A stretch of DNA of 64,000 nt from Candidatus Omnitrophota bacterium (GTDB lineage: Bacteria > Omnitrophota > Gorgyraeia > B26-G9), in contig JBDRJV010000013.1 in the NCBI GenBank assembly GCA_043814605.1, positions 34,471-98,470 of the forward strand, given 5' to 3'. Positions 6,680 through 21,713 of the stretch are shown here, piece after piece. Below the pieces are notes generated by a model. The model was not told where the DNA came from, searched no databases, and worked only from the letters and a program-made list of their open reading frames with translations. Within the stretch, counting starts at the first letter, position 1; each line of letters starts with the position of its first letter. The translations under genes and the position numbers were made by a program.

Positions 6680-7438
6680 TTACGTTTCGATAGATGAGAC
6701 ATTACCTTTAGAGTTTTTCTCTTCGTACATTAACTTATCAGCTTTATCAAGTAATTCTTCAATCGTCTGCGGTTTTTCCGGGTGATAATACATCATGCCC
6801 AGGCTCACAGTAAGCTTATATTTAAAATTAGAATTCCGCATGGCTAATTTAAGATTTTCCTTTACACGCTTACGCAGAATATCTAAACTTTCTGCTTTTA
6901 ACTCTAAGGCTAATATTGCAAACTCATCACCTCCGATTCGCCCAATCACATCTGAGCCGCGGAATGTTTTATGCAGTACTTTGGCTATACACATAAGCGC
7001 TGTATCTCCCTGCTTATGCCCCAATTTATCATTAATATGTTTTAACCCATCTAAGTCTGCATAAATAAGTACCAACCCTCTTTGCATGCGATTGGATAAT
7101 TTTAAAAGATGGTTTGCATATAACAAAAATCCTCTTCGGTTATATAATTTGGTAAGTTCGTCAATAAGCGAAAGTTCTCGTTGGATAACTTCTGCTTTCT
7201 TTAACTTGTCAAACTGTATAGATAATGGTTTATAGAGCAATTGATAGAGCACCGGCGACAATATGATAACCAGCATAATTGACTCTATAAGTATTATATT
7301 GGGAGATTTAGGGATAGGCAGAAGCAAGAATAAATGCCCGATTATTAAATCACATATTAATATCGCAAATATTAATATGAGGAGTAATTTAAGTGGTGAA
7401 TGTTTTCTTTCAAAATCATCCGGCTTTAGTATTTTCAT
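6680..7438 (-). CDS. Membrane-anchored GGDEF diguanylate cyclase
   Basis: N-terminal TM helices; RRGF, DLDGLKHINDKLGH, GRIGGDEFAIL (GGDEF) motifs. Confidence 0.8.
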   Translation of the reverse strand: MKILKPDDFERKHSPLKLLLILIFAILICDLIIGHLFLLLPIPKSPNIILIESIMLVIILSPVLYQLLYKPLSIQFDKLKKAEVIQRELSLIDELTKLYNRRGFLLYANHLLKLSNRMQRGLVLIYADLDGLKHINDKLGHKQGDTALMCIAKVLHKTFRGSDVIGRIGGDEFAILALELKAESLDILRKRVKENLKLAMRNSNFKYKLTVSLGMMYYHPEKPQTIEELLDKADKLMYEEKNSKGNVSSIET

Positions 7439-7564: not shown

Positions 7565-8512
7565 TCAAAATCTATAATCTATCCCAAAACTAAAGGAAAG
7601 CTCATCGATAAAACGATACTGGAAATTAAAAGCTGTATAGTTTTTACCCGCATCATTAGTAATAAAAGCTAATCCCGCAACTCCACCGATATTATTCTCT
7701 GCCCTCATTGAACCAAAATCATAATCAATAATCCAGTCTACTGCAAAATAAGGCCATTCCATGCTATTAAATGATGTTCCTTTAGCCGAAGCTTTTACAT
7801 CAGAATATACTGCCCCAGAGAACAGAACTAGCTTTTCTGATTTATTGCTAAACACAAACTCCTTGCTTAAAGCCAAGGCTGTTTGCCACTCTTTATATTC
7901 AGCCTGCGAATTCCACATGGTACTCGTAAGTGTGCCTCCTGAATATAGAGGCGGGTTATTCTCTAAACTTGTTAATTCAAATTTACCAGTGCTGCGAAAA
8001 CGTGTATCGCTAAATATCCGGAATCCGTTTCCCCAGGAAAACGTATTCAGAGTTATGCCTGCACCGTACAAAAAATCCGGTTTGCCTTCAACCGTTGTTT
8101 TTAAGCCAGGTTCAGTTACCTTAAATTTCATATTGTCTGCAATGCCAATTTCTGTGTAAATATCTACATATTCTGCCCAGGAAACAAGCAGCTCAATTGT
8201 ATAAAACTGACTTTCTATTTCCCGTATCAGGCTGTCTCCTTTAACCGCTGTTCCCCGTTCTTCAAGAAAACTAAAAAGAATTTTACTCCCTCCATAAATA
8301 TCCGCAGATTTCTTTGCCTGCGGCCCCCGCAACTGGAAAAATAATTCATATTTTGATGGCTTTTTCTTTTCAGGATTTTCTTTCATAACTGCCGTAGGCA
8401 GGTTTATCGGTGCAGCAACTACTGAATTATTAATTAAGAAACAGCTAGATACAGAGAAAATAATTATTACCGGAAGAATTTTTCTTTTTCTTGTAAAATT
8501 TTTTATGAGCAT
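7565..8512 (-). CDS. Secreted outer-membrane beta-barrel-like protein
   Basis: Signal peptide; alternating beta pattern; C-terminal ...FSFGIDYRF ending in aromatic residue. Confidence 0.4.
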   Translation of the reverse strand: MLIKNFTRKRKILPVIIIFSVSSCFLINNSVVAAPINLPTAVMKENPEKKKPSKYELFFQLRGPQAKKSADIYGGSKILFSFLEERGTAVKGDSLIREIESQFYTIELLVSWAEYVDIYTEIGIADNMKFKVTEPGLKTTVEGKPDFLYGAGITLNTFSWGNGFRIFSDTRFRSTGKFELTSLENNPPLYSGGTLTSTMWNSQAEYKEWQTALALSKEFVFSNKSEKLVLFSGAVYSDVKASAKGTSFNSMEWPYFAVDWIIDYDFGSMRAENNIGGVAGLAFITNDAGKNYTAFNFQYRFIDELSFSFGIDYRF

Positions 8513-8691: not shown

Positions 8692-9405
8692 TTATAGTGT
8701 TATTAAATCTCTTACTTTAATATTAATAAATTTATCTTTATAAATTTTTCTAAAAATTTTTTCTGCATGTCTTCCAGAACAATGCGTGGGGCCAACTTTT
8801 TGAACCCCCAGCTCTTTAAACTTGTCCGCAACTGTCTTGATTTCATTTAACGAACTATGCATCAAATGAAAACCGCCTAAAACGGCATAGATTTGTTTGT
8901 TAGGAAATTTTTCTTTTGCATATTCTACAATTTTCATAATTCCCGGATGCGCACATCCAGTGATAATACTTAATCCTTTATTTGTATCAACCATCAAAGC
9001 TTGTTCATAAATTTCTTTATCTTTATAATAACTTTTTATTTCTCCAGTTACATAAATATTTTCAGAGATTTTTTTAAAATCATAACTTTCAATTAAATTA
9101 CCTCTTCGCGCGTTTACATTAGTTTTAAATTGATTACTAAATCCAGGGCAGCTATACACATTTATTCCTGTTTCTTGTGCGAGGATTTCCCATAACCCCC
9201 CGGTATGGTCCCAATGGTCATGCGAAATTACAATGTGTTTTATATTTTTAATATCTATATCCATTTTACGCATATTTGAAAATAATATTTCTGCTTTAGA
9301 AAAAGTATCAAATAATATATTTTCACCGATTAAAAATGCCAGGCCCCAGTTTTTTCTAAATCTTTGCCATGGGGTTGAGCCTTTGGCAATTATTGTTATA
9401 TCCAT
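8692..9405 (-). CDS. MBL-fold metallo-hydrolase
   Basis: HDHWDHTGG (HxHxDH) motif. Confidence 0.8.
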   Translation of the reverse strand: MDITIIAKGSTPWQRFRKNWGLAFLIGENILFDTFSKAEILFSNMRKMDIDIKNIKHIVISHDHWDHTGGLWEILAQETGINVYSCPGFSNQFKTNVNARRGNLIESYDFKKISENIYVTGEIKSYYKDKEIYEQALMVDTNKGLSIITGCAHPGIMKIVEYAKEKFPNKQIYAVLGGFHLMHSSLNEIKTVADKFKELGVQKVGPTHCSGRHAEKIFRKIYKDKFINIKVRDLITL

Positions 9406-9408
9406 TAC

Positions 9409-9792
9409 TTAATCCTTTAATAAATAATTCGCAATTGCTCGATAGAGAGTACTCACAGCTAAAATAAAACAATGCTGATGGTTTTCCGGTAAATCCTTTA
9501 TCATCATTTTTACTTGTTGTGGCGAAATGCTTAATGCCTGATCAACAGTTTTTTTATGCGCTAACCGGGCGGTAGTTTCTGCACAAATAATTGTGGCCAT
9601 ACACCCAAGTTCAGTATAAAATTTTATATCCTCAATAATACCATTCTTAATACATAAATAAAATTCAAGCTCATCTCCGCAAGGGCCTTTTATTATTGCC
9701 GCAGCATCCGGAGCATTCATCCGTCCTGAATATTTTGTATTTTTTGCTATTGCCATTATTGAAGGTGAGTAAATTTGTTGATCTTTTTTCAT
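9409..9792 (-). CDS. NifU/IscU-like Fe-S scaffold domain protein
   Basis: GPCGDELEFYL ... LGCMATIICAE three-Cys pattern of NifU N-terminal domain. Confidence 0.55.
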   Translation of the reverse strand: MKKDQQIYSPSIMAIAKNTKYSGRMNAPDAAAIIKGPCGDELEFYLCIKNGIIEDIKFYTELGCMATIICAETTARLAHKKTVDQALSISPQQVKMMIKDLPENHQHCFILAVSTLYRAIANYLLKD

Positions 9793-9827
9793 TAATTTAT
9801 AATACCTTTATTTTATAAAAAAATTAA

Positions 9828-10445
9828 CTATTTTCTTGCCTGAATAACAATAAATCCCCCCTTACCAAATCCCTTGAGTGGTTTTTGCACTTTGGCTACT
9901 TTTACTGGTAAATCAAATATTGTTTGATAATAATTAAAATTACTAAATCCGTAGTTTTGTAATATTTGTTCTATTCCTGGAATATTAAAAAATTTTGCAT
10001 GTTTATAAAATAGGCTTTGTTTGCCTTGATAAAATTTTCCTAAAAAACTATCTTTATCAATAATACCAACAATAATTTGGCCTTTATTTTTTAATATCCG
10101 GTATACTTCTTCTAATACCCTGCCAGGATTCTGCATAAAACAAAGACTAATAATAATTATCGCATAATCAAAAGTTTTATTTTTAAACGGTAGGCTTTCT
10201 GCTTTAGCTACAGATACCCTTACCCCTTTTTGTGCAGCTTTTTTAAGCATTTTAACTGAAAGATCAATCCCTGTTTTTACATTTAAAGCTGCCGCAAATC
10301 TGCCTGTACCTACACCGATTTCTAATCCCTTGCCCTTTTTGGGCAAAACTCTCATGAGGGCTTCCAATTCAGACAGATAGGCAAATTTATTTCTATCATA
10401 CCAAGAATCATATTTTTTATAATGAGTGTCAAAAATATTTTGCAT
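9828..10445 (-). CDS. Class I SAM-dependent methyltransferase
   Basis: LEIGVGTGRF motif I. Confidence 0.75.
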   Translation of the reverse strand: MQNIFDTHYKKYDSWYDRNKFAYLSELEALMRVLPKKGKGLEIGVGTGRFAAALNVKTGIDLSVKMLKKAAQKGVRVSVAKAESLPFKNKTFDYAIIIISLCFMQNPGRVLEEVYRILKNKGQIIVGIIDKDSFLGKFYQGKQSLFYKHAKFFNIPGIEQILQNYGFSNFNYYQTIFDLPVKVAKVQKPLKGFGKGGFIVIQARK

Positions 10446-10449
10446 GTTT

Positions 10450-10815
10450 TTATTCTGCTTCTGGATTAAATTTCTTTTCTAATTTGGTTAAAAGTTTTAC
10501 TATTTGCTTGTTAATTTTATACAATTGGGACAATCCTGATTCTGCCATAGCGTTATTGTTTTCGTTTTTATCGTGAATGATTTGTTTTACCTGCCAATGC
10601 ATTTGGCAATAAATCTTTTCAAGCTCATTTACCTGAGGTAGATGCGCATATTTTTTCATCCCTTCCTGGTATAACCATTTGCTCAAAATATATTTTTCAC
10701 AGGAAACTGCCTGTTCTTCGCTAATATATTCTCCCCCATCAAGAAAGCATCTTAATCTCACGCTCCAAACTACGTGTTCTGTTAATTGATTCATAAAATT
10801 AATTGTTTTAGCCAT
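10450..10815 (-). CDS. Small His/Cys protein, CZB (chemoreceptor zinc-binding)-like
   Basis: H..W..RL...L.....SCEKYILSKWLYQEG....H resembles CZB H-x3-C-x-L-G-x-W pattern; weak. Confidence 0.3.
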   Translation of the reverse strand: MAKTINFMNQLTEHVVWSVRLRCFLDGGEYISEEQAVSCEKYILSKWLYQEGMKKYAHLPQVNELEKIYCQMHWQVKQIIHDKNENNNAMAESGLSQLYKINKQIVKLLTKLEKKFNPEAE

Positions 10816-10848
10816 ATTCCGAAAAAACCCCTGATCAAGCTTAATAAA

Positions 10849-11208
10849 TTATAAGTCCAAGTTTCCCCACCATCCATCATAGAACCTTTTCAGGTACTCG
10901 TAAAATTCTTCATCCATTGTATTTCTCTTTACATCTTTTTCTTTAAACGAATATTTATAACCAGCGCAATAGCTCATCAGAACATCATTTGCCTGAGCTA
11001 TTTTTTTAAACATTTCCTCGCATTCTTTTTTCTTCTCACCTCTACATTTGTCAGGATGATATTTAATGGCAAGTGTTCGATACGCATCTTTTATTTTATT
11101 CAAAGTTGCATATTCATCTAAGTCCAATATTTTTCTCGATGCATCAATTTGCATAAAATTTGCCATTTTATTTCCTGATTTTATATTTGCATTGCAAAAT
11201 TGAATCAA
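10849..11208 (-). CDS. DnaJ (J-domain) protein
   Basis: YRTLAIKYHPDK (HPD motif). Confidence 0.8.
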   Translation of the reverse strand: MIQFCNANIKSGNKMANFMQIDASRKILDLDEYATLNKIKDAYRTLAIKYHPDKCRGEKKKECEEMFKKIAQANDVLMSYCAGYKYSFKEKDVKRNTMDEEFYEYLKRFYDGWWGNLDL

Positions 11209-11213
11209 TTATT

Positions 11214-12116
11214 TTAATTGTGTTTTCTACTTTTACTATGGTGATATAATAAAACAATATCTCCAATGTTTGAATTAACCTTTTTTGCAATCACCGCACA
11301 TTTAGCTATAAACATAAAAAATACCGGCCTTTTACTGTTTGACAATGCTTCAAAATTCCCCTGCCCCTTACTAATTATCATATCAGCATTATTATAAATT
11401 TTTAAAAACTTTTTTGAACACAATCTAAGGACAGTTCCCGGAGCATCACTGCCGCTGGAAATAACCTCAGCAGTTTTATCAATCCCGCAAACAAGTGCAT
11501 CTTTTATTAAAGCATCATTAATCACTGGTTTTTCTTTTACCGCATATATAATTTCTTTAGTCTCATCCCCTCTCTTTATTTCTTCAATCAAAACACGGTC
11601 AAATACTGTTTCTCCTGCATTATCCGCTAAATAGAGAATAGTTTTTGCACGCTGTAACTGATAAGCAAATTTTCTAAAGCCAAAAATATTCTTGTTCTCT
11701 TTTTTAATAATTTGCTCTTCCTCATAAAGCAATTTATCCAGCTCTTTATCTACTTCTAAATGATTTTTTGCGCCATAGTCTATAATATTACCGATTATAG
11801 CTATCTCAACAGCAGTTAATAGTTTGATTTTCGAACATGCCACCTTTTTTTTTAATTTATCATAAATACGCAGCCCCACATCATTGCTCTTTTGTTTTAT
11901 CTGCGCGTACAAATCTGGGGTTCTAGTATTTTTTTTTAAAATTTTATTAACCATGCGGGCTACTTCCGGAGGAGAAACAGATAAAGACAATTTGGGTAAA
12001 GTCCCGGCTAGGGCATCAATAACTTTTTTCTGTTTTTTTTCGTTAAGGCCTGCCATCCGAGCCATTTCAATCGCTTGTCTAAAAAAACAAGGAATACAAT
12101 CTAAATATATTTTCAT
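11214..12116 (-). CDS. DUF89 (ARMT1-like damage-control phosphatase/methyltransferase family)
   Basis: Size and ISKGQGNFEAL motif typical of DUF89. Confidence 0.55.
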   Translation of the reverse strand: MKIYLDCIPCFFRQAIEMARMAGLNEKKQKKVIDALAGTLPKLSLSVSPPEVARMVNKILKKNTRTPDLYAQIKQKSNDVGLRIYDKLKKKVACSKIKLLTAVEIAIIGNIIDYGAKNHLEVDKELDKLLYEEEQIIKKENKNIFGFRKFAYQLQRAKTILYLADNAGETVFDRVLIEEIKRGDETKEIIYAVKEKPVINDALIKDALVCGIDKTAEVISSGSDAPGTVLRLCSKKFLKIYNNADMIISKGQGNFEALSNSKRPVFFMFIAKCAVIAKKVNSNIGDIVLLYHHSKSRKHN

Positions 12117-12159
12117 TTTTATTTCTCATTATAAAAATTAACATCACTATATGAAAATC

Positions 12160-12768
12160 CTATTCTTTAAAAATTGAAAATAGCCTGCGAGGAATTCCTA
12201 TGGCCAAGCTATCCCTTCTAATATTCGCATACTTACGGGAATCATTACAGCCAAAAGAAATATTAATATCATTCTCTAAATAAGTATTGACAGCAATGCC
12301 TCCGCAAATCGACATCATTGAGGACAAAGAAAAATTTAATCTTTTTCCTGTAAGAATATTATATTTTTTTATCAATTCCATAACATCCTCAGGCGGCAAA
12401 TAAGATATGATCATGTCTGGGAAATCATCTGTGTTTAATCCAATACACTCCACGGATTTTTTTAATGCAGAAATTTGCCGAAACATATCTATAAAAACAA
12501 AATTTTTTGTTTTATGTTTGTTATTACATTTTTTTAAAATATTGTTTTTTAAAGTATTTCCCCATCCAAATACATGTTTTGCACCCAGGCAAGATATACT
12601 TTTTCGATTTAACAACACCGGCTCAAACAATGCTTTATGCGTAGCCTCGCAAAATTTAATATTTTTCAATGGTTTAATTCCATTAAGCTTAGGATTTTTC
12701 TTATAGAATTTAACTTTAATCCAATGATTTCTAAGTCTATCTAAAATATTTTGATTAATTTTTACCAT
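12160..12768 (-). CDS. DUF169-like protein
   Basis: ~200 aa Cys-containing protein; DUF169 is a classical neighbour of MinD/Mrp-ferredoxin ATPases; assignment from memory of family. Confidence 0.35.
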   Translation of the reverse strand: MVKINQNILDRLRNHWIKVKFYKKNPKLNGIKPLKNIKFCEATHKALFEPVLLNRKSISCLGAKHVFGWGNTLKNNILKKCNNKHKTKNFVFIDMFRQISALKKSVECIGLNTDDFPDMIISYLPPEDVMELIKKYNILTGKRLNFSLSSMMSICGGIAVNTYLENDINISFGCNDSRKYANIRRDSLAIGIPRRLFSIFKE

Positions 12769-12783
12769 TATGCTATCCTTCCC

Positions 12784-13665
12784 TTAAGTGTTTATTTCTT
12801 GTTTTAACCTTTCCCAAATATCAATAATTGCTTTTTTTACCGGAGAATTATCATATTCAATGATTGTTTTTCCTTCTACCATTGCCTTAACTACTGATTT
12901 ATCAAAACAAATTTTTCCACTTAGTTTAATGTTATTTTCAAAACAAAATTTTTCAATTTTTTCAGACATATTAATATTTAGATCATATTTATTTATTATC
13001 AACCTTACTGGAACATTAAAGTGCTGTGTAACTTCAATCACACGCATTGCATCATGCAAACCAGAAAGAGTTGGTTCAGTTACTACTAAAGCAAGATCTA
13101 TACCGGATAAAGAAGCAATAACCGGACATCCAATACCTGGAGCTCCATCAATAATAACCCAATTATAATTATTTTCTTCTGCCAATTGCTTTGCTCTATT
13201 CCGTACTAAAGATACAAGCTTTCCTGAATTTTCCTCAGCAATACCCAGCTTCGCATGTACCATGGGACCAAAACGAGTATCCGAAATAAACCAATGCCCG
13301 GAAAGGTTTTCTTGCATAATAATCGCTTTTTTAGGACAGATAAAACTGCAAAACCCGCATCCTTCACAATCAATAGGATCAATCATAAAACTCTTTTCTA
13401 TAGATGCATTATTTTTTACAGCAAAAAAACGACAAACATTAAAACAATTTCCACAATTATTGCATAGGCTTGGGTTAATTCGCGCTGTTTTGCCGCTTCT
13501 AAATTCATACTTTTCTTTTATTTGTGGATGAAGTAAAAGATGCAGATCCGCAGCATCTACATCGCAATCTGCAAAACAAGCGTTTTTAGCTAAAGCTGCT
13601 AATGCTCCGGTAAGAATAGTTTTACCTGTTCCGCCTTTGCCACTAATAATAACTATTTGTTTCAT
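12784..13665 (-). CDS. MinD/Mrp/ParA-type P-loop ATPase with two 4Fe-4S ferredoxin motifs
   Basis: GKGGTGKT deviant Walker A; CNNCGNCFNVC and CEGCGFCSFICP ferredoxin motifs. Confidence 0.8.
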   Translation of the reverse strand: MKQIVIISGKGGTGKTILTGALAALAKNACFADCDVDAADLHLLLHPQIKEKYEFRSGKTARINPSLCNNCGNCFNVCRFFAVKNNASIEKSFMIDPIDCEGCGFCSFICPKKAIIMQENLSGHWFISDTRFGPMVHAKLGIAEENSGKLVSLVRNRAKQLAEENNYNWVIIDGAPGIGCPVIASLSGIDLALVVTEPTLSGLHDAMRVIEVTQHFNVPVRLIINKYDLNINMSEKIEKFCFENNIKLSGKICFDKSVVKAMVEGKTIIEYDNSPVKKAIIDIWERLKQEINT

Positions 13666-14514
13666 TTACTTAGTTCTCAAAATTTTTTGAAACATTGTTA
13701 AAAAACTATTTTTATATTCTGGAAATTTTTCTACTATGGAAATGCCCTGAGAATAGCTTTGAGCAATTTCTTTTTTAAAAGGAATCTGCATCAATACTGG
13801 AATTTTTTCTTTTTCGCAGTATGTTTCTGTTGCCTTATCCCCTAGGTCAGAACGATTGATTAAAACCCCAAATGGTATTTTTAATTTTCTTACAACTTCA
13901 ACTGCTAAAATTAAATCGTTTAAGCCAAAAGGAGTAGGTTCGGTTACCAGTAAACAAAAATCACTCCTTCTTAAAGAAGAAACTACCGGGCATGATGTTC
14001 CCGGGGGGACATCAATAATCACTGTTTTCTCTGGATTAATATATTTTTTAACTTGACGGATTAAAGGCGGAGCCATTGCTTCGCCTACATTAAGTTTTCC
14101 GTGGATAAATTCTATGCCCCGACAAACACCTTTTTCTACAATACCAATTTCCTTATTGACTTCGGTGATTGCTTTTTGAGGGCAAAAAAAACTGCAGGCT
14201 CCGCAACCATGACAGAGATTTGTAAAAACCAGAATACTTCCTTTTCTGTTTTCCTTAGCTGGTAACACAGCGAATGCATTATACGCACATACTTGGCGGC
14301 ACCTGCCGCAGTAAATACATTTTTTTTCATCAATTAGCGGCACTGGAATATATGCTTTTTCCTGCTCTTTTATTTCCGGATTTAAAAAGATATGTGCGTT
14401 AGGCTCTTCTACATCACAATCAAGAAATTGCACATTTTGTATCGACAAAGCTAAATTCACTGCAACTGTAGTTTTTCCGGTTCCGCCTTTGCCACTGGCA
14501 ACAGAAATAATCAT
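13666..14514 (-). CDS. MinD/Mrp/ParA-type ATPase with 4Fe-4S ferredoxin motifs (paralog)
   Basis: GKGGTGKT; CIYCGRCRQVC, CHGCGACSFFCP. Confidence 0.8.
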   Translation of the reverse strand: MIISVASGKGGTGKTTVAVNLALSIQNVQFLDCDVEEPNAHIFLNPEIKEQEKAYIPVPLIDEKKCIYCGRCRQVCAYNAFAVLPAKENRKGSILVFTNLCHGCGACSFFCPQKAITEVNKEIGIVEKGVCRGIEFIHGKLNVGEAMAPPLIRQVKKYINPEKTVIIDVPPGTSCPVVSSLRRSDFCLLVTEPTPFGLNDLILAVEVVRKLKIPFGVLINRSDLGDKATETYCEKEKIPVLMQIPFKKEIAQSYSQGISIVEKFPEYKNSFLTMFQKILRTK

Positions 14515-14525
14515 TTAAATTCCTT

Positions 14526-15131
14526 TTAATGTTTATCCGAAATTATTAAATCCTGATTTTCACCTTTAATTTCTCTTACCCAAAAACCCCTGCGCATTAA
14601 ATAATCCCTTAAATCTTTTAATGTAACAAAACTCTTATTATGATTGCGTCCTTCGGCTTTATGTATCTGGTCTAAAATACTAAATCCATTTTTATTAAAG
14701 TCACTTAAAATAATTTTCCCCCCAGGCAAAACTAAACGTATCATTTCCGCAATTGCTTTGTAAGGATTACTTAAATGGTGAATTGTATTGACCGAAAAAA
14801 TCACATCAAAACTTGAATCATTAAAACCTAAGTTTTCTGCATTAGCAATTTTAAAATTTACTTTTTCTTTAACTTTGAAATATTCTAGATTTAATTTGGC
14901 TAATGCCTGGTCCTCTTTAGATATATCTACACTTGTAAAACTATAGCCCTGTTTTGCTAATGCTAAAGTAAAGTGCCCTTTTCCTGTGCCTATTTCTAAA
15001 ATATTTCCCTTGATCGGTAATGAATTATTTAAAATAAATTCTTTTTCTTTATTTCGGTCTATACCGAATTTTTTAAAAACCTCAATTCTTTCTAAAAATA
15101 TTTGATGATTTTCCAAGACTTTTTTTCGCAT
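14526..15131 (-). CDS. Class I SAM-dependent methyltransferase
   Basis: ILEIGTGKGHFTLALA motif I. Confidence 0.75.
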   Translation of the reverse strand: MRKKVLENHQIFLERIEVFKKFGIDRNKEKEFILNNSLPIKGNILEIGTGKGHFTLALAKQGYSFTSVDISKEDQALAKLNLEYFKVKEKVNFKIANAENLGFNDSSFDVIFSVNTIHHLSNPYKAIAEMIRLVLPGGKIILSDFNKNGFSILDQIHKAEGRNHNKSFVTLKDLRDYLMRRGFWVREIKGENQDLIISDKH

Positions 15132-15135
15132 ATTA

Positions 15136-15372
15136 TTAGCCTCTACTCATGGGGATATTACACTTAGGACAATTCATATGCGTACAGGGCAATCCCGATT
15201 GATGTCCAATTTTCATTCCGCAATTAGCACAAACACAAAATCCTCCCGGGCCTCTACCCTGAATTCCCTTCCTTACAAATCTTCCTTGGCCTGCGCCTAA
15301 ACCTCTTCCTGTTCCAGGGCCTTGTCCCTGAGGGCCTGTTCCATCTCCTCTTGGCATATTGCACCTCCTCAA
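15136..15372 (-). CDS. DUF5320-like small Gly-rich protein with C-terminal Cys/His zinc-ribbon (likely starts at internal Met, MPRGDGTGP)
   Basis: MPRGDGTGPQGQGPGTGRGLG N-terminus; CVCANCG...H...C.H.NCPKC tail. Confidence 0.55.
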   Translation of the reverse strand: MRRCNMPRGDGTGPQGQGPGTGRGLGAGQGRFVRKGIQGRGPGGFCVCANCGMKIGHQSGLPCTHMNCPKCNIPMSRG

Positions 15373-15377
15373 TTATA

Positions 15378-15743
15378 TTAACTCATGCCAAAATGAGACG
15401 TTACGTTAGGTTTATCAATTGTTTTAAACTTATTATTTTTATATTGTTCAATAATTTCTTTTATTTTTCCCGAAGCTCCAGTAATAACTCTTATCCCTCC
15501 AGCTTTTAAAGTGTTAAAAGCATTTGGGCCTACATTCCCGGTAATTACAATTTCTGCTAACTTTTCTGATATTAATTGTCCGGATTGGATTCCTGCCCCG
15601 CCCGAACTATCAATATTAGGATTTTTTATTGCTTCAAATTCCAGAGTATCAGGATTAACAATTATAAAATACTGGCAACGACCAAAATGAGGATCAACCT
15701 GTGATTCTAAATTATCTCCTTGAGACGTAATACATATTTTCAT
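15378..15743 (-). CDS. NifX/NifB-type dinitrogenase FeMo-cofactor domain protein
   Basis: MKICITSQGDNLESQVDPHFGRCQYFIIV typical of Nitro_FeMo-Co family. Confidence 0.8.
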   Translation of the reverse strand: MKICITSQGDNLESQVDPHFGRCQYFIIVNPDTLEFEAIKNPNIDSSGGAGIQSGQLISEKLAEIVITGNVGPNAFNTLKAGGIRVITGASGKIKEIIEQYKNNKFKTIDKPNVTSHFGMS

Positions 15744-15754
15744 TTATTTTCCTC

Positions 15755-16156
15755 CTATTCATGTTCACAATCATCTTCGTGGGGATGATCACAAGCTGTT
15801 TTTTCTACTCCATAACCTTTTCCTGCTCCGGGACTACAAAGGCTTTCTCCTCCTTCAAGCTTTCCATTAATAAAAGCCTCAATCACATTATCAACTTTAC
15901 CGCTAATTCCCATTATGGTTTGGATATTAACTTCGGAAAATAATTCTCTTGCTCTCATTCCCATCCCCCCGGCTACTATTGCCTGCACACCTTTCTCATG
16001 CAAAAAACGCGGTAAAAATCCCGGATGATGTCCCGGATTATTTAAAATTTCTGAGCTTATTATTTTATTCTGCTCTATCTCTACAATTGTAAAAGCTGGA
16101 CAGCGACCAAAATGAGCAGATACTAAATCTCCATCTGTAGAAATTGCAATTTTCAA
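15755..16156 (-). CDS. NifX/NifB-type FeMo-cofactor domain protein with C-terminal CDHPHEDDCEHE tail (TTG start)
   Basis: MKIAISTDGDLVSAHFGRCPAFTIV; His/Cys/acidic C-terminus. Confidence 0.8.
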   Translation of the reverse strand: MKIAISTDGDLVSAHFGRCPAFTIVEIEQNKIISSEILNNPGHHPGFLPRFLHEKGVQAIVAGGMGMRARELFSEVNIQTIMGISGKVDNVIEAFINGKLEGGESLCSPGAGKGYGVEKTACDHPHEDDCEHE

Positions 16157-16204
16157 AATTAACCTCCTTTAATGATCTCGCCTTGGCGGGAGAATTAAAC
16201 CCCG

Positions 16205-16237
16205 AATCGAACTTGTTCTGGTTCGGGGTTAATCCAA
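16205..16237 (-). promoter_or_regulatory. Intercistronic GC stem-loop (aaccccgaa...ttcggggtt)
   Basis: 9-bp perfect stem between DUF5320-like gene and NifX-like gene; no T-run, so probably processing/attenuation rather than terminator. Confidence 0.35.
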
Positions 16238-16246
16238 ATCTCTTCA

Positions 16247-16600
16247 CTATTTAGTTTCTTCCTCTTCTTTTACTGCATTAAGTTCTTTTATCCGCTGATT
16301 TATAGCTTGTATTTCATCTTGCATAAATTTTACCTGTTCTTTTAAAAATTCAGTTTCGGTTCTAGGTGTAATCCCAAAATCATTTACTCCATAAGCATAT
16401 GAAGCCATTCTCCGCCAGCCAAATCCCTGTCCTCTACCATATCCTCTACCAAACCCCCGTCCATAACCAAAACTACCACGTCCAGGCGCTGAATTCATAT
16501 AGCCTGATACAGGATAACCAGCACAATAACCTCTTCCGCCACCTGTAAATGGACCTTGCCCTCTTGGCCCAGTTCCGTCAAAACCTGGCATATCAATCAC
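16247..16600 (-). CDS. DUF5320-like protein (MPGFDGTGPRGQGPFTGGGRGYCAGY...) with C-terminal coiled coil
   Basis: N-terminal motif; Gly/Tyr/Arg-rich middle; EIQAINQRIKELNAVKEEEE. Confidence 0.55.
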   Translation of the reverse strand: MIDMPGFDGTGPRGQGPFTGGGRGYCAGYPVSGYMNSAPGRGSFGYGRGFGRGYGRGQGFGWRRMASYAYGVNDFGITPRTETEFLKEQVKFMQDEIQAINQRIKELNAVKEEEETK

Positions 16601-16624
16601 CTCCTAAATGAGTCCCGCCGTATT

Positions 16625-16662
16625 CTTGCAGAATGCAAGAGTCGGGACGAATTTAGTCTTGC
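16625..16662 (-). promoter_or_regulatory. 5'-UTR hairpin directly upstream of RBS of 16247..16600
   Basis: gtcccg-ccgta-ttcttgca-gaa-tgcaagag-t-cgggac imperfect long hairpin. Confidence 0.35.
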
Positions 16663-16714
16663 CAATGCACACTCCCTTGAATGGACTTGGCAGACAAATA
16701 TTTTAAATCTTTTT

Positions 16715-16741
16715 TATTAATGAAAACCATTTTCATTAATA
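16715..16741. promoter_or_regulatory. Fur-family-box-like perfect palindrome TATTAATGAAAA-cca-TTTTCATTAATA
   Basis: 12-bp inverted repeat, 3-bp spacer, AT-rich (operator-like, not terminator-like), between Fur-family gene and the downstream 14-gene operon. Confidence 0.5.
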
Positions 16742-16753
16742 GGTTAAAAAAAT

Positions 16754-17227
16754 TTAGCTTTTTTTTCTGCATTTATCACATATTCCATAAAATTGAATTA
16801 TGTGACTTGTGATTTCAAAGTTGTATTTATTAGACAATCCCTTCTCAGTTTTTTTCAGTAATTCTATTTCGTCATTTATAAAATCAGTATACTCAATTAT
16901 ACGATTACATTCTTTACATACCAGATGATGGTGATGATGACTTTTCTTTGATCCCTCAACAAGTTCATACCTTGATCTTCCGTCTCCAAAATCAAACTTA
17001 AAAACAAGACTCATGTTAACCAGTATTTCTAGTGTCCTATAAACAGTTGTCAGTCCAACCGCCGGGTAAATTGGATGAATTTTATTATAAATATCTTCTG
17101 CGCTGAGATGTTTATCTGCGATCATTAACGCATCTAAGATAGCCTCTCTGCCTGCTGTAATTCGATAACCGCAGCCTCTGAATCTCCCATGCCACCACAT
17201 TGGGCCTGTTCCATCTCGTCTTGGCAT
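16754..17227 (-). CDS. Fur-family metalloregulator with N-terminal MPRRDGTGP (DUF5320-like) extension
   Basis: ILDALMIADKHLSAEDIYNKI...VGLTTVYRTLEIL wHTH; HHHHH; CKECNRII...CDKCR. Confidence 0.8.
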   Translation of the reverse strand: MPRRDGTGPMWWHGRFRGCGYRITAGREAILDALMIADKHLSAEDIYNKIHPIYPAVGLTTVYRTLEILVNMSLVFKFDFGDGRSRYELVEGSKKSHHHHHLVCKECNRIIEYTDFINDEIELLKKTEKGLSNKYNFEITSHIIQFYGICDKCRKKS

Positions 17228-17393
17228 ATCAAAACTCCTTATTGAAAACTATTCCCATTTATAAATATACCTTATCTTAAAAACTTTGTCAAGTTTTTTT
17301 ACTTATTTTAGTGATATTAGAGGTTAAAAATTATGGATTGTTATAACTTTAAGATATTACTCTTCGCCATCTTAAGTGATATAAAGCGTAATA

Positions 17394-20999: not shown

Positions 21000-21713
21000 T
21001 TAACTTGCCCGTCCTAACGTCTTGAACCAGATTCTATTCTTTCCCGTCATCTTAGCTTTATACATCGCCTGATCTGCTTCTTTTACAAATTCTTCAATTG
21101 TCTGCCCTGTTTGATATTCGGCAATGCCAATACTAACTGTTTTGTGCACATAGTATTCTGGGTTTACTTTAGCTTGCGGATAGAATTTCATTGTTTCGAT
21201 TTGTTTACGGATCCTTTCCGCTGGCGTTATAGCAAAATGTACAGCTGTCTCAAGTAATAATATGGTAAATTCTTCTCCGCCGATTCTAAAAGCGTAATCA
21301 GTTTTTCTTAAGTTGCTGGTAAAAATATCTGCCAGTTTTATAAGCACTATATCTCCAGCTCCATGCCCATATTTGTCGTTATAATTCTTAAAATTATCTA
21401 CATCAATATACAAAAGCGACATTGAACGTTCATACCTCTGGCATCGGGGGCATTCCATATTAAGATATTCATAAAAAACGCGGCGGTTATATAATTGGGT
21501 GAGAACATCTGTTCTGCTTAATTTTTCTAATTCTACATTTTTTCTTTCTAATTCCTTATACAGTAATTTAATCCCTTCATTTGTTTTCTTTGTTGCCCAC
21601 ATTTGATCATTAAGTTCCTGCTGGAGCTCATTTATTTGCTGCTGAAGAATTCTATTTTGTCCCATAAGATCAATTTGTTTTTCTTGATCTTTATTGTTTC
21701 CACCTCCAGCCAT
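21000..21713 (-). CDS. GGDEF diguanylate cyclase with N-terminal coiled coil
   Basis: RRVF, DVDNFKNYNDKYGH, RIGGEEFTIL. Confidence 0.8.
   Translation of the reverse strand: MAGGGNNKDQEKQIDLMGQNRILQQQINELQQELNDQMWATKKTNEGIKLLYKELERKNVELEKLSRTDVLTQLYNRRVFYEYLNMECPRCQRYERSMSLLYIDVDNFKNYNDKYGHGAGDIVLIKLADIFTSNLRKTDYAFRIGGEEFTILLLETAVHFAITPAERIRKQIETMKFYPQAKVNPEYYVHKTVSIGIAEYQTGQTIEEFVKEADQAMYKAKMTGKNRIWFKTLGRAS

What the first reader, a model, noticed from the sequence alone, without database searches (positions are those of the whole stretch)
8692..17227. 14-gene Fur-controlled operon combining DUF5320-like, NifX-like, MinD/Mrp-ferredoxin ATPases, DUF169, DUF89, DnaJ, two methyltransferases, NifU-like and an MBL hydrolase
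All genes are on the minus strand with 1-44-nt gaps (one 91-nt gap holding a GC stem-loop), so they are very likely co-transcribed from 16600 to 8692. The content points to metallocofactor or Fe-S handling: two FeMo-co-type carrier domains (one with a CDHPHEDDCEHE tail), two Mrp/MinD ATPases with embedded 2x[4Fe-4S] motifs, a NifU-like scaffold and Zn-ribbon DUF5320-like proteins. The organism has no nitrogenase here. Pieces of this neighbourhood (DUF5320/DUF134/NifB-like/Mrp) recur in anaerobes but the function is unknown. This version is unusually complete and sits under a dedicated Fur-family regulator, arguing for a metal-responsive cofactor maturation or trafficking pathway.
Basis: partly seen in the sequence, partly recalled or inferred. 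Interest (0 to 1): 0.7.

Follow-up and report, generated by a model that had tools for sequence, protein, structure and literature searches.

The report
Fur/PerR-controlled orange-protein-type metal-cluster operon
This is a real 15-gene operon-like string from an uncultured Omnitrophota bacterium: a widespread but undescribed version of the poorly understood "orange protein" metal-sulfur cluster system of anaerobes, here headed by its own Fur/PerR-type repressor and always accompanied by glycine/arginine-rich DUF5320 proteins.

Summary
They lie behind one strong promoter-like site.

The core is not an orphan. NifX2, the two MinD/ferredoxin ATPases, NifX1 and NifU-like match, in the same order, gene clusters recovered from metagenomes with the Desulfovibrio gigas orange protein (ORP). 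[quoted passage not shown]

New here:
- DUF5320 is a near-obligate partner of this core across more than 20 phyla (30 of 37 well-flanked loci).
- A distinct Fur-family clade sits directly upstream in 20 loci from 7 named phyla. A classical Fur-box-like palindrome is kept at fixed positions. The clade has the PerR-type Asp in 18 of 19 orthologues, but Glu in the window.
- A structured spacer follows DUF5320L in most loci.
- Both ATPases keep an invariant Cys seven residues after the Walker B Asp.

Best reading: a stress-derepressed (low iron or oxidant) machine that carries and delivers Fe-S or metal-sulfide clusters. The mechanism is inferred. Verdict: new variant of a known kind, moderate interest.

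The parts
17264..17292 (-). Sigma-70-type promoter-like site, TTGACA-17-TATATT (11 of 12 matches), upstream of fur
   Evidence: The same GGTATATT -10 box is followed by the operator in L001, L003 and L004.
17241..17259 (-). Operator O1: Fur-box-like 9-1-9 palindrome (AATGGGAATAGTTTTCAAT), directly after the -10 box and about 15 nt before the fur ATG
   Evidence: A site with at most 4 mismatches lies at -29 to -42 from the fur ATG in 14 of 20 related loci (17 of 20 anywhere in the 200 nt upstream), against 57 of 1000 random 200-nt pieces.
16754..17227 (-). Fur-family regulator (157 aa) with a conserved N-terminal extension, MPRRDGTGPMWWHGRFRGCGYR
   Evidence: Pfam FUR 106 bits. Closest named families are Fur, then PerR. 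Orthologues with the same extension sit directly upstream of DUF5320L in 20 loci from 7 named phyla. The PerR-type Asp is present in 18 of 19 orthologues, Glu here.
16719..16737 (-). Operator O2: perfect palindrome AATGAAAATGGTTTTCATT, 17 nt after the fur stop codon
   Evidence: A second site 14-22 nt after the fur stop, with at most 3 mismatches, occurs in 8 further loci and in L001, L003 and L004.
16601..16700 (-). Structured leader in front of DUF5320L (two hairpins; the last abuts the ribosome-binding site)
   Evidence: The whole 156-nt spacer folds at -49.8 kcal/mol, z -5.8. No Rfam family matches. Similar CCCGNC...GNCGGGA hairpins appear in L089, L091, L099 and L001. Function unknown.
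16247..16591 (-). DUF5320L (114 aa): invariant N-motif MPxxDGTGPxGxGPxTGxGxGYC, then a Gly/Arg/aromatic repeat region, then a C-terminal coiled-coil-like helix
   Evidence: Pfam DUF5320 96 bits. The family has 3906 representative clusters. Alignment. Composition of residues 1-75: G 24, aromatic 14, K/R 8, one Cys, pI 10.1.
16193..16235 (-). Stem-loop in the 90-nt spacer after DUF5320L
   Evidence: Across related loci this junction is the long one (median 62 nt, against -22 to 24 nt at every other junction except fur->DUF5320L, which is 60 nt) and it is structured (median z -3.4; 73% below -2, against 31% of other spacers).
15755..16156 (-). NifX1 (133 aa): NifX-like domain with AHFGRCP and HHPGFLP motifs and a conserved Cys/His tail, C-x16-CDHPHEDDCEHE
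   Evidence: Pfam 81 bits. It matches the Di-Nase part of the NCBIfam MrpORP model, positions 265-365, 104 bits. The tail is conserved in L001, L003 and L004. The motifs resemble those reported for MrpORP (PMC6345978).
15378..15743 (-). NifX2 (121 aa): tail-less NifX-like protein of the orange-protein/MTH1175 type
   Evidence: Best solved relatives are MTH1175 (1eo1, E 9e-17) and the D. gigas ORP (2wfb, E 1e-15). It is the best match to the ORP gene in the ORP-seeded loci.
15136..15357 (-). DUF5320S (73 aa): the same N-motif, a Gly/Arg stretch, and a C-terminal ribbon with six Cys
   Evidence: Pfam DUF5320 28.6 bits. Orthologues. It is present in 29 of 37 well-flanked loci, often just upstream of the first ATPase.
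14526..15131 (-). Class I SAM methyltransferase MT1
   Evidence: Pfam Methyltransf_11 83 bits. Same position in L001, L003 and L004. Present in 10 of 37 loci.
13666..14514 (-). MinD1: deviant-Walker-A ATPase with a 2x[4Fe-4S] ferredoxin insert and an invariant Cys seven residues after the Walker B Asp (first ATPase of ORP clusters, Orp3/4 type)
   Evidence: It scores 254 bits against the first ATPase and 126 against the second in ORP-seeded loci. Motifs are kept in 92 of 93 orthologues. It is 70-79% identical across Omnitrophota.
12784..13665 (-). MinD2: paralogous ATPase with the same features (second ATPase of ORP clusters)
   Evidence: It scores 284-296 bits against the second ATPase and 111-130 against the first. 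Motifs are kept in 73-74 of 74 orthologues.
12160..12768 (-). DUF169 protein (accessory)
   Evidence: Pfam 87 bits. Same position in Omnitrophota and Planctomycetota strings, but only 4 of 37 loci overall.
11214..12116 (-). DUF89/ARMT1-type metal-dependent phosphatase (a frequent accessory gene)
   Evidence: Pfam 212 bits. NCBIfam damage-control phosphatase 177 bits, below the cut-off. Present in 15 of 37 loci.
10849..11208 (-). Small J-domain protein (HPD motif present)
   Evidence: Pfam DnaJ 56 bits. Orthologues are paired with MT2 in L001, L003 and L004 and in Planctomycetota and Endomicrobiales.
10450..10815 (-). CZB-like four-helix protein (weak match)
   Evidence: Pfam CZB 22.5 bits, below the cut-off. 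A 70% identical orthologue in L001 sits between DnaJ and MT2.
9828..10445 (-). Class I SAM methyltransferase MT2
   Evidence: Pfam Methyltransf_11 67 bits. It always follows DnaJ (and CZB where present) in relatives.
9409..9792 (-). NifU_N/IscU-type scaffold with the three Cys and the His intact
   Evidence: Pfam 67 bits. Best NCBIfam match is NifU_clost, below the cut-off. A NifU-like gene also ends the ORP-seeded clusters.
8692..9405 (-). Metallo-beta-lactamase-fold hydrolase (accessory)
   Evidence: Pfam Lactamase_B 37 bits. Orthologues in L001, L003 and L004. Present in 13 of 37 loci.

Best explanation
The locus is the Omnitrophota form of a widespread, anaerobe-specific gene cluster of the orange-protein (ORP) type. 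I propose that it handles an inorganic Fe-S or metal-sulfide cluster and is repressed by its own Fur/PerR-type regulator.

Shown by comparison:
- The regulator gene heads the string. A classical Fur-box-like palindrome sits right after its -10 box and again just after its stop codon, in many phyla.
- The core genes co-occur in a fixed order across phyla: DUF5320L, NifX1, NifX2, DUF5320S, and two paralogous ATPases that each carry 2x[4Fe-4S] motifs and an invariant Cys seven residues after the Walker B Asp. A NifU-type scaffold, DUF89, MBL, DnaJ and the methyltransferases are frequent add-ons.

Inferred mechanism:
1. With its metal bound (probably Fe2+), the regulator occupies the operators and shuts the promoter. 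Iron scarcity, or oxidation of the PerR-like site, releases it.
2. The NifX-like proteins hold cluster species. [quoted passage not shown] NifX2 would bind non-covalently, as the orange protein does.
3. The cationic, disordered DUF5320 proteins, each with one invariant Cys, bind or bridge the anionic cluster and the carriers. DUF5320L is made in excess because of the stem-loop after its gene.
4. The MinD1/MinD2 pair uses ATP, and electrons from its ferredoxin inserts, to load, reduce or release the cluster, much as NifH does.
5. The NifU-type scaffold, with the J-protein, passes [Fe-S] on to apo-proteins.
For: - Gene content and order.
- Orthology to ORP clusters: NifX2 against the D. gigas ORP, E 1e-15. 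NifX1 against the MrpORP Di-Nase domain, 104 bits. MinD1 and MinD2 each pair with the first or second ATPase of 73 ORP-seeded loci, which also end in NifX1-like and NifU-like genes.
- Published biochemistry: the Orp proteins form a complex, Orp3/4 are Fe-S proteins matured by MrpORP, and the Di-Nase domain binds Fe-S (PMC6345978).
- Conservation: the same string in four Omnitrophota loci at 40-85% identity, and in Planctomycetota and Endomicrobiales. In 37 well-flanked DUF5320-seeded loci, 30 have NifX2 plus both ATPases.
- Regulation: promoter-like site. Operator conserved at a fixed distance, against a random control. No other strong site in the 64-kb window.
- Physical link between DUF5320 and NifX: a recurrent fusion family.
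- Excess DUF5320L: the spacer after its gene is long and structured across phyla.
- ATPase features kept in 165 of 167 orthologues.
- NifU ligand residues are intact (read from the sequence).
Against: - No experiment exists for this organism, and co-transcription is not shown.
- The physiological role of the ORP complex is itself unresolved. A cell-division role has been proposed (PMC8359166).
- In D. vulgaris the orp operons are switched on at very low redox potential and off when it rises (PMC8359166). A PerR/Fur-type repressor would predict the opposite.
- The Mrp/NBP35 ATPase domain of Orp9 is absent from the window.
- The metal or oxidant sensed is undetermined: Glu in the window against Asp in 18 of 19 orthologues.
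- AlphaFold2 gave no confident contact between the DUF5320 motif and the NifX domain; the motif had pLDDT of about 35-51.
- The parallel with NifH Cys132 rests on my memory of NifH numbering. NifH was not among the PDB sequence hits.
- The roles of DUF169, DUF89, MBL, the CZB-like protein and the two methyltransferases are unexplained.
Confidence: 0.55

Rival explanations
1. Split IssA-like iron-sulfur storage. DUF5320 proteins would be the free-standing counterpart of the cationic Gly/Arg/aromatic tail of Pyrococcus IssA. Together with the tail-less NifX-like proteins they would nucleate a thioferrate-like Fe-S polymer or particle. The redox ATPases would later mobilise it onto the NifU scaffold.
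For: - IssA is an IPR003731 (NifX-like) domain plus an unstructured tail of 70 residues with 15 Gly, 14 aromatic and 7 cationic residues, the protein's only Cys, and pI 10.7 (PMC5524996).
- DUF5320L residues 1-75 have 24 Gly, 14 aromatic and 8 K/R residues, one Cys, and pI 10.1.
- Natural NifX+DUF5320 fusions with Gly/Arg tails are common.
- The region is predicted to be disordered.
- DUF5320L appears to be over-expressed because of a downstream stem-loop.
- Ferritin or EncFtn-like genes lie next to or inside related strings.
Against: - The IssA sequence (Q8TZG9) could not be obtained, so homology of its tail to DUF5320 is untested.
- IssA is made when iron and sulfide are abundant. A classical Fur-box overlapping the promoter predicts expression when iron is scarce.
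- IssA's tail has a Pro-rich segment that is not evident here.
- No particle or metal data exist.
Confidence: 0.2
2. A MinD-like positioning or cell-division system. The two ATPases would act as membrane- or pole-associated organisers, as proposed for the ORP complex in D. vulgaris, and the metal-binding proteins would be redox-sensing accessories.
For: - The ATPases are MinD/ParA-family proteins with a deviant Walker A.
- Loss of orp expression (orpR inactivation) in D. vulgaris alters cell morphology, MrpORP is polar, and Orp3/4 have MinD-like C-terminal amphipathic helices (PMC6345978, PMC8359166).
- By eye, the C-termini of both window ATPases look amphipathic.
Against: - No MinC, MinE, FtsZ or other division genes appear in any of the roughly 150 loci examined.
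- The constant partners are NifX-like carriers, NifU-type scaffolds and Mrp-type ATPases.
- A Fur/PerR-type repressor is an odd controller for a division system.
Confidence: 0.08
3. Handling or detoxification of molybdenum/tungsten-copper thiometallates. NifX2 would bind a [S2MoS2CuS2MoS2]3- type cluster, as the isolated orange protein does, and the system would sequester thiomolybdate or copper in sulfidic habitats.
For: - NifX2 is about as close to the D. gigas orange protein as to MTH1175.
- The orange protein binds a Mo-Cu sulfide cluster non-covalently (cited in PMC6345978).
- Cationic DUF5320 regions would suit any anionic thiometallate.
- One related locus ends beside a heavy-metal P-type ATPase.
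Against: - No mod, tup, copper or molybdopterin genes are among the recurrent neighbours.
- The operator is a classical Fur box, not a ModE or CsoR type.
- The NifU-type scaffold and the Fe-S-binding Di-Nase-like NifX1 point to iron.
Confidence: 0.07
4. A chance co-linear set of unrelated genes, with several independent transcripts and a Fur gene that regulates other targets.
For: - Promoter-like hexamers occur inside the string at the rate expected by chance (42 found, 42.3 expected).
- Accessory genes come and go between relatives.
- In L001 the DnaJ-CZB-MT2 triplet lies 5 kb away.
Against: - The order and orientation are kept across phyla.
- Operators are kept at fixed positions.
- Gaps are 0-43 nt.
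- NifX-DUF5320 fusions exist.
Confidence: 0.03

Closest known systems
Orange protein (ORP) complex cluster of Desulfovibrio (Orp3, Orp4, Orp5, Orp7, Orp8, Orp9/MrpORP; regulator OrpR)
   Same: - Two paralogous MinD-type ATPases with 2x[4Fe-4S] motifs.
- An ORP/MTH1175-type NifX-like protein.
- A second NifX-like protein with the Di-Nase motifs of MrpORP.
- A small Cys-rich protein ahead of the ATPases.
- A dedicated regulator, and restriction to anaerobes (PMC6345978, PMC8359166).
   Different: - The regulator is a Fur/PerR-type repressor, not the sigma-54 activator OrpR with its Fe-S PAS domain.
- One co-directional string rather than two divergent operons.
- The Di-Nase domain stands alone and no Mrp/NBP35 domain is in the window.
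- DUF5320L, NifU-like, DUF89, DUF169, MBL, DnaJ, a CZB-like protein and two methyltransferases are added.
- The predicted regulatory logic is opposite: derepressed by low iron or oxidant, against activated at very low redox potential.
IssA, the thioferrate iron-sulfur storage protein of Pyrococcus furiosus
   Same: - A NifX-like (IPR003731) domain.
- A disordered cationic Gly/Arg/aromatic segment with a single Cys.
- Fused NifX+DUF5320 relatives exist.
   Different: - Here the two parts are separate genes.
- DUF5320 has a sharply conserved N-terminal motif, and a coiled-coil or Cys ribbon, neither described for IssA.
- Sequence homology to the IssA tail is not tested.
- IssA is induced by abundant iron and sulfide.
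NifX/NafY/NifB-C carriers with the NifH ATPase in nitrogenase cofactor assembly
   Same: - Small NifX-fold proteins that carry complex Fe-S species.
- They work with a dimeric deviant-Walker-A ATPase that has a redox cluster. The window ATPases keep a Cys seven residues after the Walker B Asp, the spacing I recall for NifH Asp125-Cys132.
   Different: - No nitrogenase, NifEN or NifB radical-SAM domain.
- The ATPases carry an inserted 2x[4Fe-4S] ferredoxin domain and are MinD-like by sequence.
- The NifH parallel is inference.
Stress-responsive Fe-S assembly systems (SUF under Fur/OxyR; Mrp/NBP35/ApbC carriers)
   Same: - An IscU/NifU-type scaffold.
- P-loop carrier ATPases (Mrp-type genes are present in many related strings).
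- A J-domain co-chaperone.
- Repression by a Fur-family protein.
   Different: - No cysteine desulfurase and no SufBCD.
- The carriers are NifX-fold proteins.
- The ATPases have ferredoxin inserts.
PerR and Fur regulators (Bacillus type)
   Same: - Structural CxxC...CxxC zinc site and a His-rich regulatory site.
- A 7-1-7 core, TGAAAATnATTTTCA or TGGTAATcATTATCA, close to the Fur box TGATAATnATTATCA.
- An autoregulatory position over the promoter.
   Different: - A conserved N-terminal extension of about 20 residues (MPRGxGxGPxWWHGRFRGCGYR) with its own Cys.
- The clade has the PerR-type Asp but a Fur-type box. The window protein has Glu (PMC4866751).

Membership tests
ORP (orange protein) complex gene cluster | Two paralogous MinD-like ATPases, each with two [4Fe-4S] ferredoxin motifs (Orp3/Orp4) | tested here: met
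   Each window ATPase matches one specific ATPase of the ORP-seeded loci (254 against 126 bits; 284 against 117 bits).
ORP (orange protein) complex gene cluster | An orange-protein-type single-domain NifX-like protein (Orp8) | tested here: met
   NifX2 against D. gigas ORP 2wfb, E 1.1e-15 over 104 residues. It is the best match to the ORP gene in 73 loci. Binding of a Mo-Cu cluster is not testable here.
ORP (orange protein) complex gene cluster | MrpORP (Orp9): an Mrp/NBP35 P-loop domain fused to a Di-Nase domain | tested here: not met
   Only the Di-Nase part is present, as the stand-alone NifX1 (model positions 265-365, 104 bits against a cut-off of 450). There is no Mrp domain in the string. 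Mrp-type genes are present in related strings.
ORP (orange protein) complex gene cluster | A small Cys-rich [2Fe-2S]-binding protein ahead of the ATPases (Orp5 / Dde_3197) | tested here: inconclusive
   DUF5320S has six C-terminal Cys and lies upstream of the ATPases, separated from them here by MT1. The Orp5 and Dde_3197 sequences could not be obtained for comparison.
ORP (orange protein) complex gene cluster | Control by the sigma-54 enhancer-binding protein OrpR at a GGGCGYRTTTTGCGCCC site | tested here: not met
   No enhancer-binding protein is present. A Fur-family gene and Fur-box-like operators are there instead. Sigma-54 activators do occur next to some DUF5320/ORP loci (L072, L013, L033).
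IssA-type iron-sulfur storage | An IPR003731 domain joined to a cationic, Gly-rich, aromatic tail (pI at least 9, fewer than 5 Cys, at least 20% Gly in the last 40 residues) | tested here: not met
   NifX1 has an acidic Cys/His tail (pI 4.5) and NifX2 has no tail. The cationic Gly-rich part is a separate gene. Fused forms exist elsewhere.
IssA-type iron-sulfur storage | Formation of thioferrate-containing particles | not testable with these tools
   This needs metal analysis, XAS and electron microscopy.
DUF5320 (PF17253) | Match to the family profile above the gathering score | tested here: met
   DUF5320L 96.1 bits and DUF5320S 28.6 bits, against a cut-off of 27.
Fur (iron-sensing) as opposed to PerR | A Glu (Fur) or an Asp (PerR) at the O-donor ligand after the first CxxC (B. 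subtilis Fur Glu108 / PerR Asp104) | tested here: inconclusive
   The window has Glu (CNRIIEY). 18 of 19 orthologues have Asp. The rule is taken from PMC4866751. Best profile matches are Fur 126 bits, PerR 92 and Zur 36, all below their cut-offs.
Nitrogenase cofactor carriers (NifX/NafY) | Association with nifEN, nifB and nifHDK | tested here: not met
   Homologues of nif genes were not searched for directly. No nitrogenase domain is recorded among the genes of the three Omnitrophota loci with Pfam annotation, and none of the 15 genes of the string is a nitrogenase component. The recurrent neighbours in the other loci were scored only against the window's own proteins.

The most novel reading that the evidence does not exclude
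DUF5320 proteins are the missing, free-standing equivalent of the IssA tail. Under this reading the whole ORP-type cluster (NifX-like carriers, DUF5320, two redox ATPases and a NifU scaffold) builds and mobilises a protein-bound inorganic iron-sulfur store in more than 20 anaerobic phyla. In many of them it would be governed by a dedicated Fur/PerR-type sensor whose N-terminal Cys-containing extension reads the state of that store. This would give the long-enigmatic orange protein complex a function and extend thioferrate-type storage far beyond Thermococcales.
Probability: 0.2. Interest if true: 0.8.

Novelty: new variant of a known kind. Interest (0 to 1): 0.55.

Why it matters
The ORP complex has been studied for over a decade without an agreed function, and DUF5320 has essentially no literature (two incidental mentions).

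This analysis adds several things:
- DUF5320 is a constant, sometimes fused, partner of the ORP core.
- A dedicated Fur/PerR-type repressor with a recognisable operator controls the cluster in at least seven phyla.
- The two ATPases keep an invariant Cys seven residues after the Walker B Asp.

These points turn a vague "metallocofactor" neighbourhood into testable hypotheses: which signal derepresses it, what the NifX/DUF5320 pair binds, and what the ATPases do. They also tie the system to iron-sulfur economy in uncultured anaerobes such as Omnitrophota and anaerobic Planctomycetota. If the IssA-like reading holds, it points to a widespread non-ferritin way of storing iron in sulfidic habitats.

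Tried and rejected
1. Exact-sequence look-ups of window proteins found nothing on record. The organism was instead identified from a 100% identical NCBI cluster named Candidatus Omnitrophota.
2. I asked whether the regulator's N-terminal extension is homologous to the DUF5320 N-motif. A profile of the motif hit only 1 of 23 regulators, at E 5. This is a resemblance only; in the window and L001 the first nine residues happen to match.
3. AlphaFold2 on a natural NifX+DUF5320 fusion with 78 sequences gave a confident NifX domain. The DUF5320 part had pLDDT of about 35-51, so there is no evidence of docking.
4. Rfam found no known RNA family in the leaders or spacers.
5. The IssA sequence (Q8TZG9) and the Orp5/Dde_3197 sequences were not retrievable from papers or supplements. 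NCBIfam has no IssA model that hits. Both comparisons stay open.
6. The first 69-sequence DUF5320 alignment was too diverse to seed a scan. A 10-sequence subset worked.
7. Other weak operator matches in the window (4342, 12150 and 22080) lie inside or at the start of unrelated genes, and their number is what chance gives.
8. The 315-aa outer-membrane-like gene downstream (7565-8512) is not conserved with the cluster, so it is left out.
9. A Zur reading was considered, because I recalled a similar actinobacterial Zur box. It was rejected: the Zur profile score is low (36 bits), the Asp85-equivalent ligand is present, and there are no zinc-sparing genes.
10. A RiPP or peptide-modification reading of DUF5320 plus the methyltransferases was rejected. 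There is no protease or exporter, the methyltransferases are present in only 10-14 of 37 loci, and the fusion partners are NifX domains.

Full report
**1. What is in the sequence**

Between 8692 and 17227 the minus strand carries 15 consecutive ORFs. In order of transcription, Pfam assigns them as follows:
- a Fur-family regulator
- DUF5320 (long form, "DUF5320L")
- two Nitro_FeMo-Co (NifX-like) proteins, NifX1 and NifX2
- a short DUF5320 with a Cys-rich C-terminus ("DUF5320S")
- a class I methyltransferase (MT1)
- two CbiA/ParA-type ATPases with inserted 2x[4Fe-4S] motifs (MinD1, MinD2)
- DUF169
- a DUF89/ARMT1 phosphatase
- a small J-domain protein
- a weak CZB-like protein
- a second methyltransferase (MT2)
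- a NifU_N/IscU-type scaffold with its three Cys and His intact
- an MBL-fold hydrolase

Gaps are 0-43 nt, apart from 153 nt between fur and DUF5320L and 90 nt after DUF5320L. The family-wide invariant "MP" start moves the true starts of the two DUF5320 genes to 16591 and 15357. The best promoter-like site in the 10-kb region, TTGACA-17-TATATT, lies just upstream of fur.

**2. Whose genome**

The first ATPase is 100% identical to an NCBI protein from a Candidatus Omnitrophota metagenome-assembled genome. It is 70-79% identical to more than 100 other clusters; every hit that carries an organism name is Omnitrophota.

**3. The string is conserved, first within the phylum**

Three other Omnitrophota contigs keep the same order (L001/L002, L003, L004):

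Fur - DUF5320L - NifX1 - NifX2 - (small ferredoxin or EncFtn-like) - DUF5320S - MT1 - MinD1 - (a CoA-disulfide-reductase-like flavoprotein) - MinD2 - DUF169 or DUF2099 - (Mrp-type ATPase, radical SAM, NifU) - DUF89 - ... - MBL - DnaJ - MT2

Most window genes have an orthologue at 40-85% identity in all three loci. The exceptions are CZB-like (L001 only), NifU-like (absent from L003) and DUF169 (replaced by DUF2099 in L004). The DnaJ-CZB-MT2 triplet is a movable module; in L001 it sits 5 kb upstream beside OsmC, a rhodanese-flavoprotein and ferritin.

**4. The core is the known orange-protein (ORP) cluster**

- NifX2's best solved relatives are MTH1175 and the Desulfovibrio gigas orange protein (E 9e-17 and 1e-15).
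- NifX1 matches the C-terminal "Di-Nase" part of NCBI's MrpORP model (104 bits). It carries motifs like those reported for that domain (xHFGxC, HxPGxxP and a terminal CDH; PMC6345978). Its Cys/His tail is conserved.
- A metagenome scan seeded with the D. gigas ORP gave 73 loci whose common string is ORP - ATPase - ATPase - NifX1-like - NifU-like. Window MinD1 and MinD2 each match one specific ATPase of that pair (about 254 against 126 bits, and 284 against 117 bits). The paralogue pair is therefore ancient.

In D. vulgaris these proteins form a complex (Orp3, 4, 5, 8 and 9). MrpORP matures the Fe-S clusters of Orp3/4. The operons are activated by the sigma-54 regulator OrpR only at very low redox potential. 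The physiological role is still described as unclear, possibly linked to cell division (PMC6345978, PMC8359166).

**5. DUF5320 belongs to this system**

DUF5320 has virtually no literature, but it is a large family: 3906 representative clusters at E <= 1e-3.

Its architecture is an invariant N-terminal motif (MPxGDGTGPxGxGPxTGRGxGYC, one invariant Cys), then GRG-aromatic repeats, then an amphipathic C-terminal helix. The short form replaces the helix with a ribbon of six Cys. A third form is only the motif plus a Gly/Arg/Gln tail.

About 20 of the ORP-seeded loci have a DUF5320 gene just upstream of ORP.

A genome scan seeded with DUF5320 returned 80 loci from more than 20 phyla. These include Planctomycetota, Verrucomicrobiota, Atribacterota, Bacillota, Chloroflexota, Desulfobacterota, Spirochaetota, Elusimicrobiota, Zixibacteria and archaea. 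Among the 37 loci with enough flanking DNA:

| Neighbour | Loci (of 37) |
|---|---|
| NifX2 plus both ORP-type ATPases | 30 |
| DUF5320S | 29 |
| NifX1 | 27 |
| DUF89 | 15 |
| MT2 | 14 |
| MBL | 13 |
| MT1 | 10 |
| the Fur clade | 9 |
| NifU | 7 |
| DnaJ | 7 |
| DUF169 | 4 |

Gene callers in several sources also predict a family of 190-230-aa proteins made of a NifX-like domain, a linker, the DUF5320 motif and a cationic Gly/Arg tail. Of the top 120 clusters, about 30 carry both Pfam domains. Such fusions argue for direct cooperation between the two parts.

**6. Regulation**

A gene of one Fur-family clade (140-266 bits to the window protein) lies directly upstream of DUF5320L, in the same orientation, in 20 of the 80 loci. 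These come from Omnitrophota, Planctomycetota, Verrucomicrobiota, Atribacterota, Clostridia, Endomicrobiales and Poribacteria. Nearly all have the N-terminal extension MPRGxGxGPxWWHGRFRGCGYR.

In the window and the three Omnitrophota relatives, a 9-1-9 palindrome (consensus AATGAAAAT-N-ATTTTCATT) occurs twice: right after the -10 box of fur, and 14-22 nt after the fur stop codon. Across the 20 loci:
- A site with at most 4 mismatches lies in the 200 nt upstream of fur in 17, and at -29 to -42 from the fur ATG in 14.
- A second site with at most 3 mismatches lies 14-22 nt after the fur stop in 8 further loci.
- Only 57 of 1000 random 200-nt pieces from the same loci reach 4 mismatches or fewer, and some of those overlap the real sites.

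The core (TGAAAATnATTTTCA or TGGTAATcATTATCA) is a close variant of the classical Fur box. This comparison is from my own knowledge. No other strong site exists in the 64-kb window, so the regulator looks dedicated.

By profile the protein is nearest to Bacillus-type Fur, then PerR, and far from Zur. At the ligand position that distinguishes PerR (Asp104) from Fur (Glu108) (PMC4866751), 18 of 19 orthologues have Asp while the window protein has Glu.

The conservative conclusion is a Fur/PerR-type repressor that is released by loss of its metal and, in most relatives, probably by oxidation. No separate promoter was detected for DUF5320L. The second operator may act as a roadblock or a co-operative site. 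This is inference.

**7. Further conserved features**

The junction after DUF5320L is one of the two long ones in these operons. Its median is 62 nt; the fur-DUF5320L junction has a median of 60 nt, and all others range from -22 to 24 nt. It is also strongly structured: median z -3.4, with 73% below -2, against 31% for other spacers. This is what a partial terminator or a 3' stabiliser would look like, and it suggests that DUF5320L (with the regulator) is made in excess of the downstream proteins.

In 165 of 167 orthologues, the two ATPases keep three features:
- the deviant Walker A, GKGGxGK[ST]
- two CxxCxxCxxxC motifs
- a Cys seven residues after the Walker B Asp (DxPPGxxCP)

The weaker Mrp-type hits have DxPPGTGDE instead. 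As I recall NifH (Asp125...Cys132), this is the spacing of its cluster ligand. The comparison is not confirmed by alignment here, and no ATPase of this kind has a solved structure.

**8. How it most likely works**

Shown: the gene content, the conservation, the fusions, the operators and the sequence features above.

Inferred:
- The regulator keeps the promoter shut while its metal site is filled and reduced.
- On iron scarcity or oxidant exposure the string is expressed.
- NifX1 (Cys/His tail) and NifX2 (orange-protein-like, non-covalent) hold cluster species.
- The cationic, disordered DUF5320 proteins bind or bridge the anionic cluster and the carriers.
- The MinD1/MinD2 pair couples ATP hydrolysis and electron input to loading, reduction or release.
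- The NifU-type scaffold, with the J-protein, passes clusters on to client proteins.

This resembles SUF-type logic (stress-induced Fe-S supply) built from NifX-fold carriers. I give it 0.55.

The main tension is with D. vulgaris, where the orp genes are on at very low redox potential and off when it rises (PMC8359166). The roles of DUF169, DUF89, MBL, the CZB-like protein and the methyltransferases remain unexplained.

**9. The more novel reading**

IssA of Pyrococcus is a NifX-like domain with an unstructured tail that holds the protein's only Cys and is cationic, Gly-rich and aromatic (70 residues: 15 Gly, 14 aromatic, 7 cationic; pI 10.7). The tail is proposed to wrap anionic thioferrate (PMC5524996).

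DUF5320L residues 1-75 have 24 Gly, 14 aromatic and 8 K/R residues, one Cys and pI 10.1. The natural NifX+DUF5320 fusions reproduce the IssA layout. The region is predicted to be disordered. The cluster may therefore be a split IssA-like store with its own mobilising ATPases.

Against this reading:
- I could not obtain the IssA sequence, so homology is untested.
- IssA is induced by plentiful iron and sulfide, whereas a Fur box over the promoter predicts the reverse.

I put this at about 0.2.

**10. Rivals with less support**

- A MinD-like positioning or division role: no division genes in about 150 loci.
- Mo/W-Cu thiometallate handling: no Mo, W or Cu genes recur, and the operator is Fur-type.
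- Chance co-linearity: contradicted by the cross-phylum order, the operators and the fusions.

**11. Verdict**

The locus is a member of a widespread variant of the ORP-type system that I could not find described in the searchable literature. The variant is headed by a Fur/PerR-type regulator and contains DUF5320. It is a new variant of a known kind, not a new category.

Its value lies in concrete, testable leads to the function of the ORP complex and of DUF5320. Interest: 0.55.

Noticed in passing
window 50649-50926 (-), with ORF 50875-51192 (-): A group I intron (Rfam RF00028, 72 bits, full-length model) overlaps or abuts a 105-aa ORF with an HNH-like motif (CxxC...HH...CANCH). ARAGORN found no tRNA gene anywhere in the window, so the host gene of the intron is unclear.
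   Followed up: partly
window 16601-16700 (-); L089 9690-9985; L099 882-1048; L091 5227-5399; L001 7445-7602: Leaders in front of DUF5320L hold a recurring hairpin with a CCCGNC...GNCGGGA stem, often next to AATTCG. It is duplicated in tandem in the Planctomycetia locus L089. No Rfam family matches. It could be a cis-regulatory RNA or a repeat element.
   Followed up: partly
L004 7581-8102; about 15 proteins of 157-187 aa (e.g. P0121, P0126, P0133): Some DUF5320L proteins carry the N-terminal motif twice in tandem, each copy still beginning with Met-Pro. The fused NifX+DUF5320 proteins also keep the 'MP'. This raises the possibility of internal translation starts.
   Followed up: no
L146 2256-2750 (Methanosarcinales); L009 7602-8360: DUF134-type helix-turn-helix proteins run, without a stop codon, into a DUF5320 motif (L146) or into the ORP gene (L009). 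DUF134 seems to take the regulator's place in some lineages, as sigma-54 activators do in others (L072, L013, L033).
   Followed up: partly
L001 10866-12212 and 1-782; L003 10868-12214 and 8356-8607; L001 3014-3493: Related Omnitrophota strings insert a 448-aa CoA-disulfide-reductase/NSR-like flavoprotein between the two ATPases. They also carry an EncFtn-like gene (L003), or ferritin and a rhodanese-flavoprotein nearby (L001). These hint at sulfane-sulfur reduction and iron storage, but are absent from the window.
   Followed up: no
window 13666-14514 and 12784-13665 (-): Both ATPases have an invariant Cys in DxPPGxxCP, kept in 165 of 167 orthologues. The Mrp-type ATPases of the same loci have DxPPGTGDE instead. 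No solved structure exists for this ATPase type.
   Followed up: partly
window 6680-7438 (-), 21000-21713 (-), 21738-22097 (-): Two GGDEF diguanylate cyclase-like genes lie in the window, one directly downstream of a stand-alone receiver-domain gene. They are unrelated to the cluster.
   Followed up: no
P0123: A 4060-aa protein scored 118 bits against DUF5320L through 17 separate stretches that match only the C-terminal helix region. This is almost certainly a coiled-coil or low-complexity artefact, not a relative.
   Followed up: no
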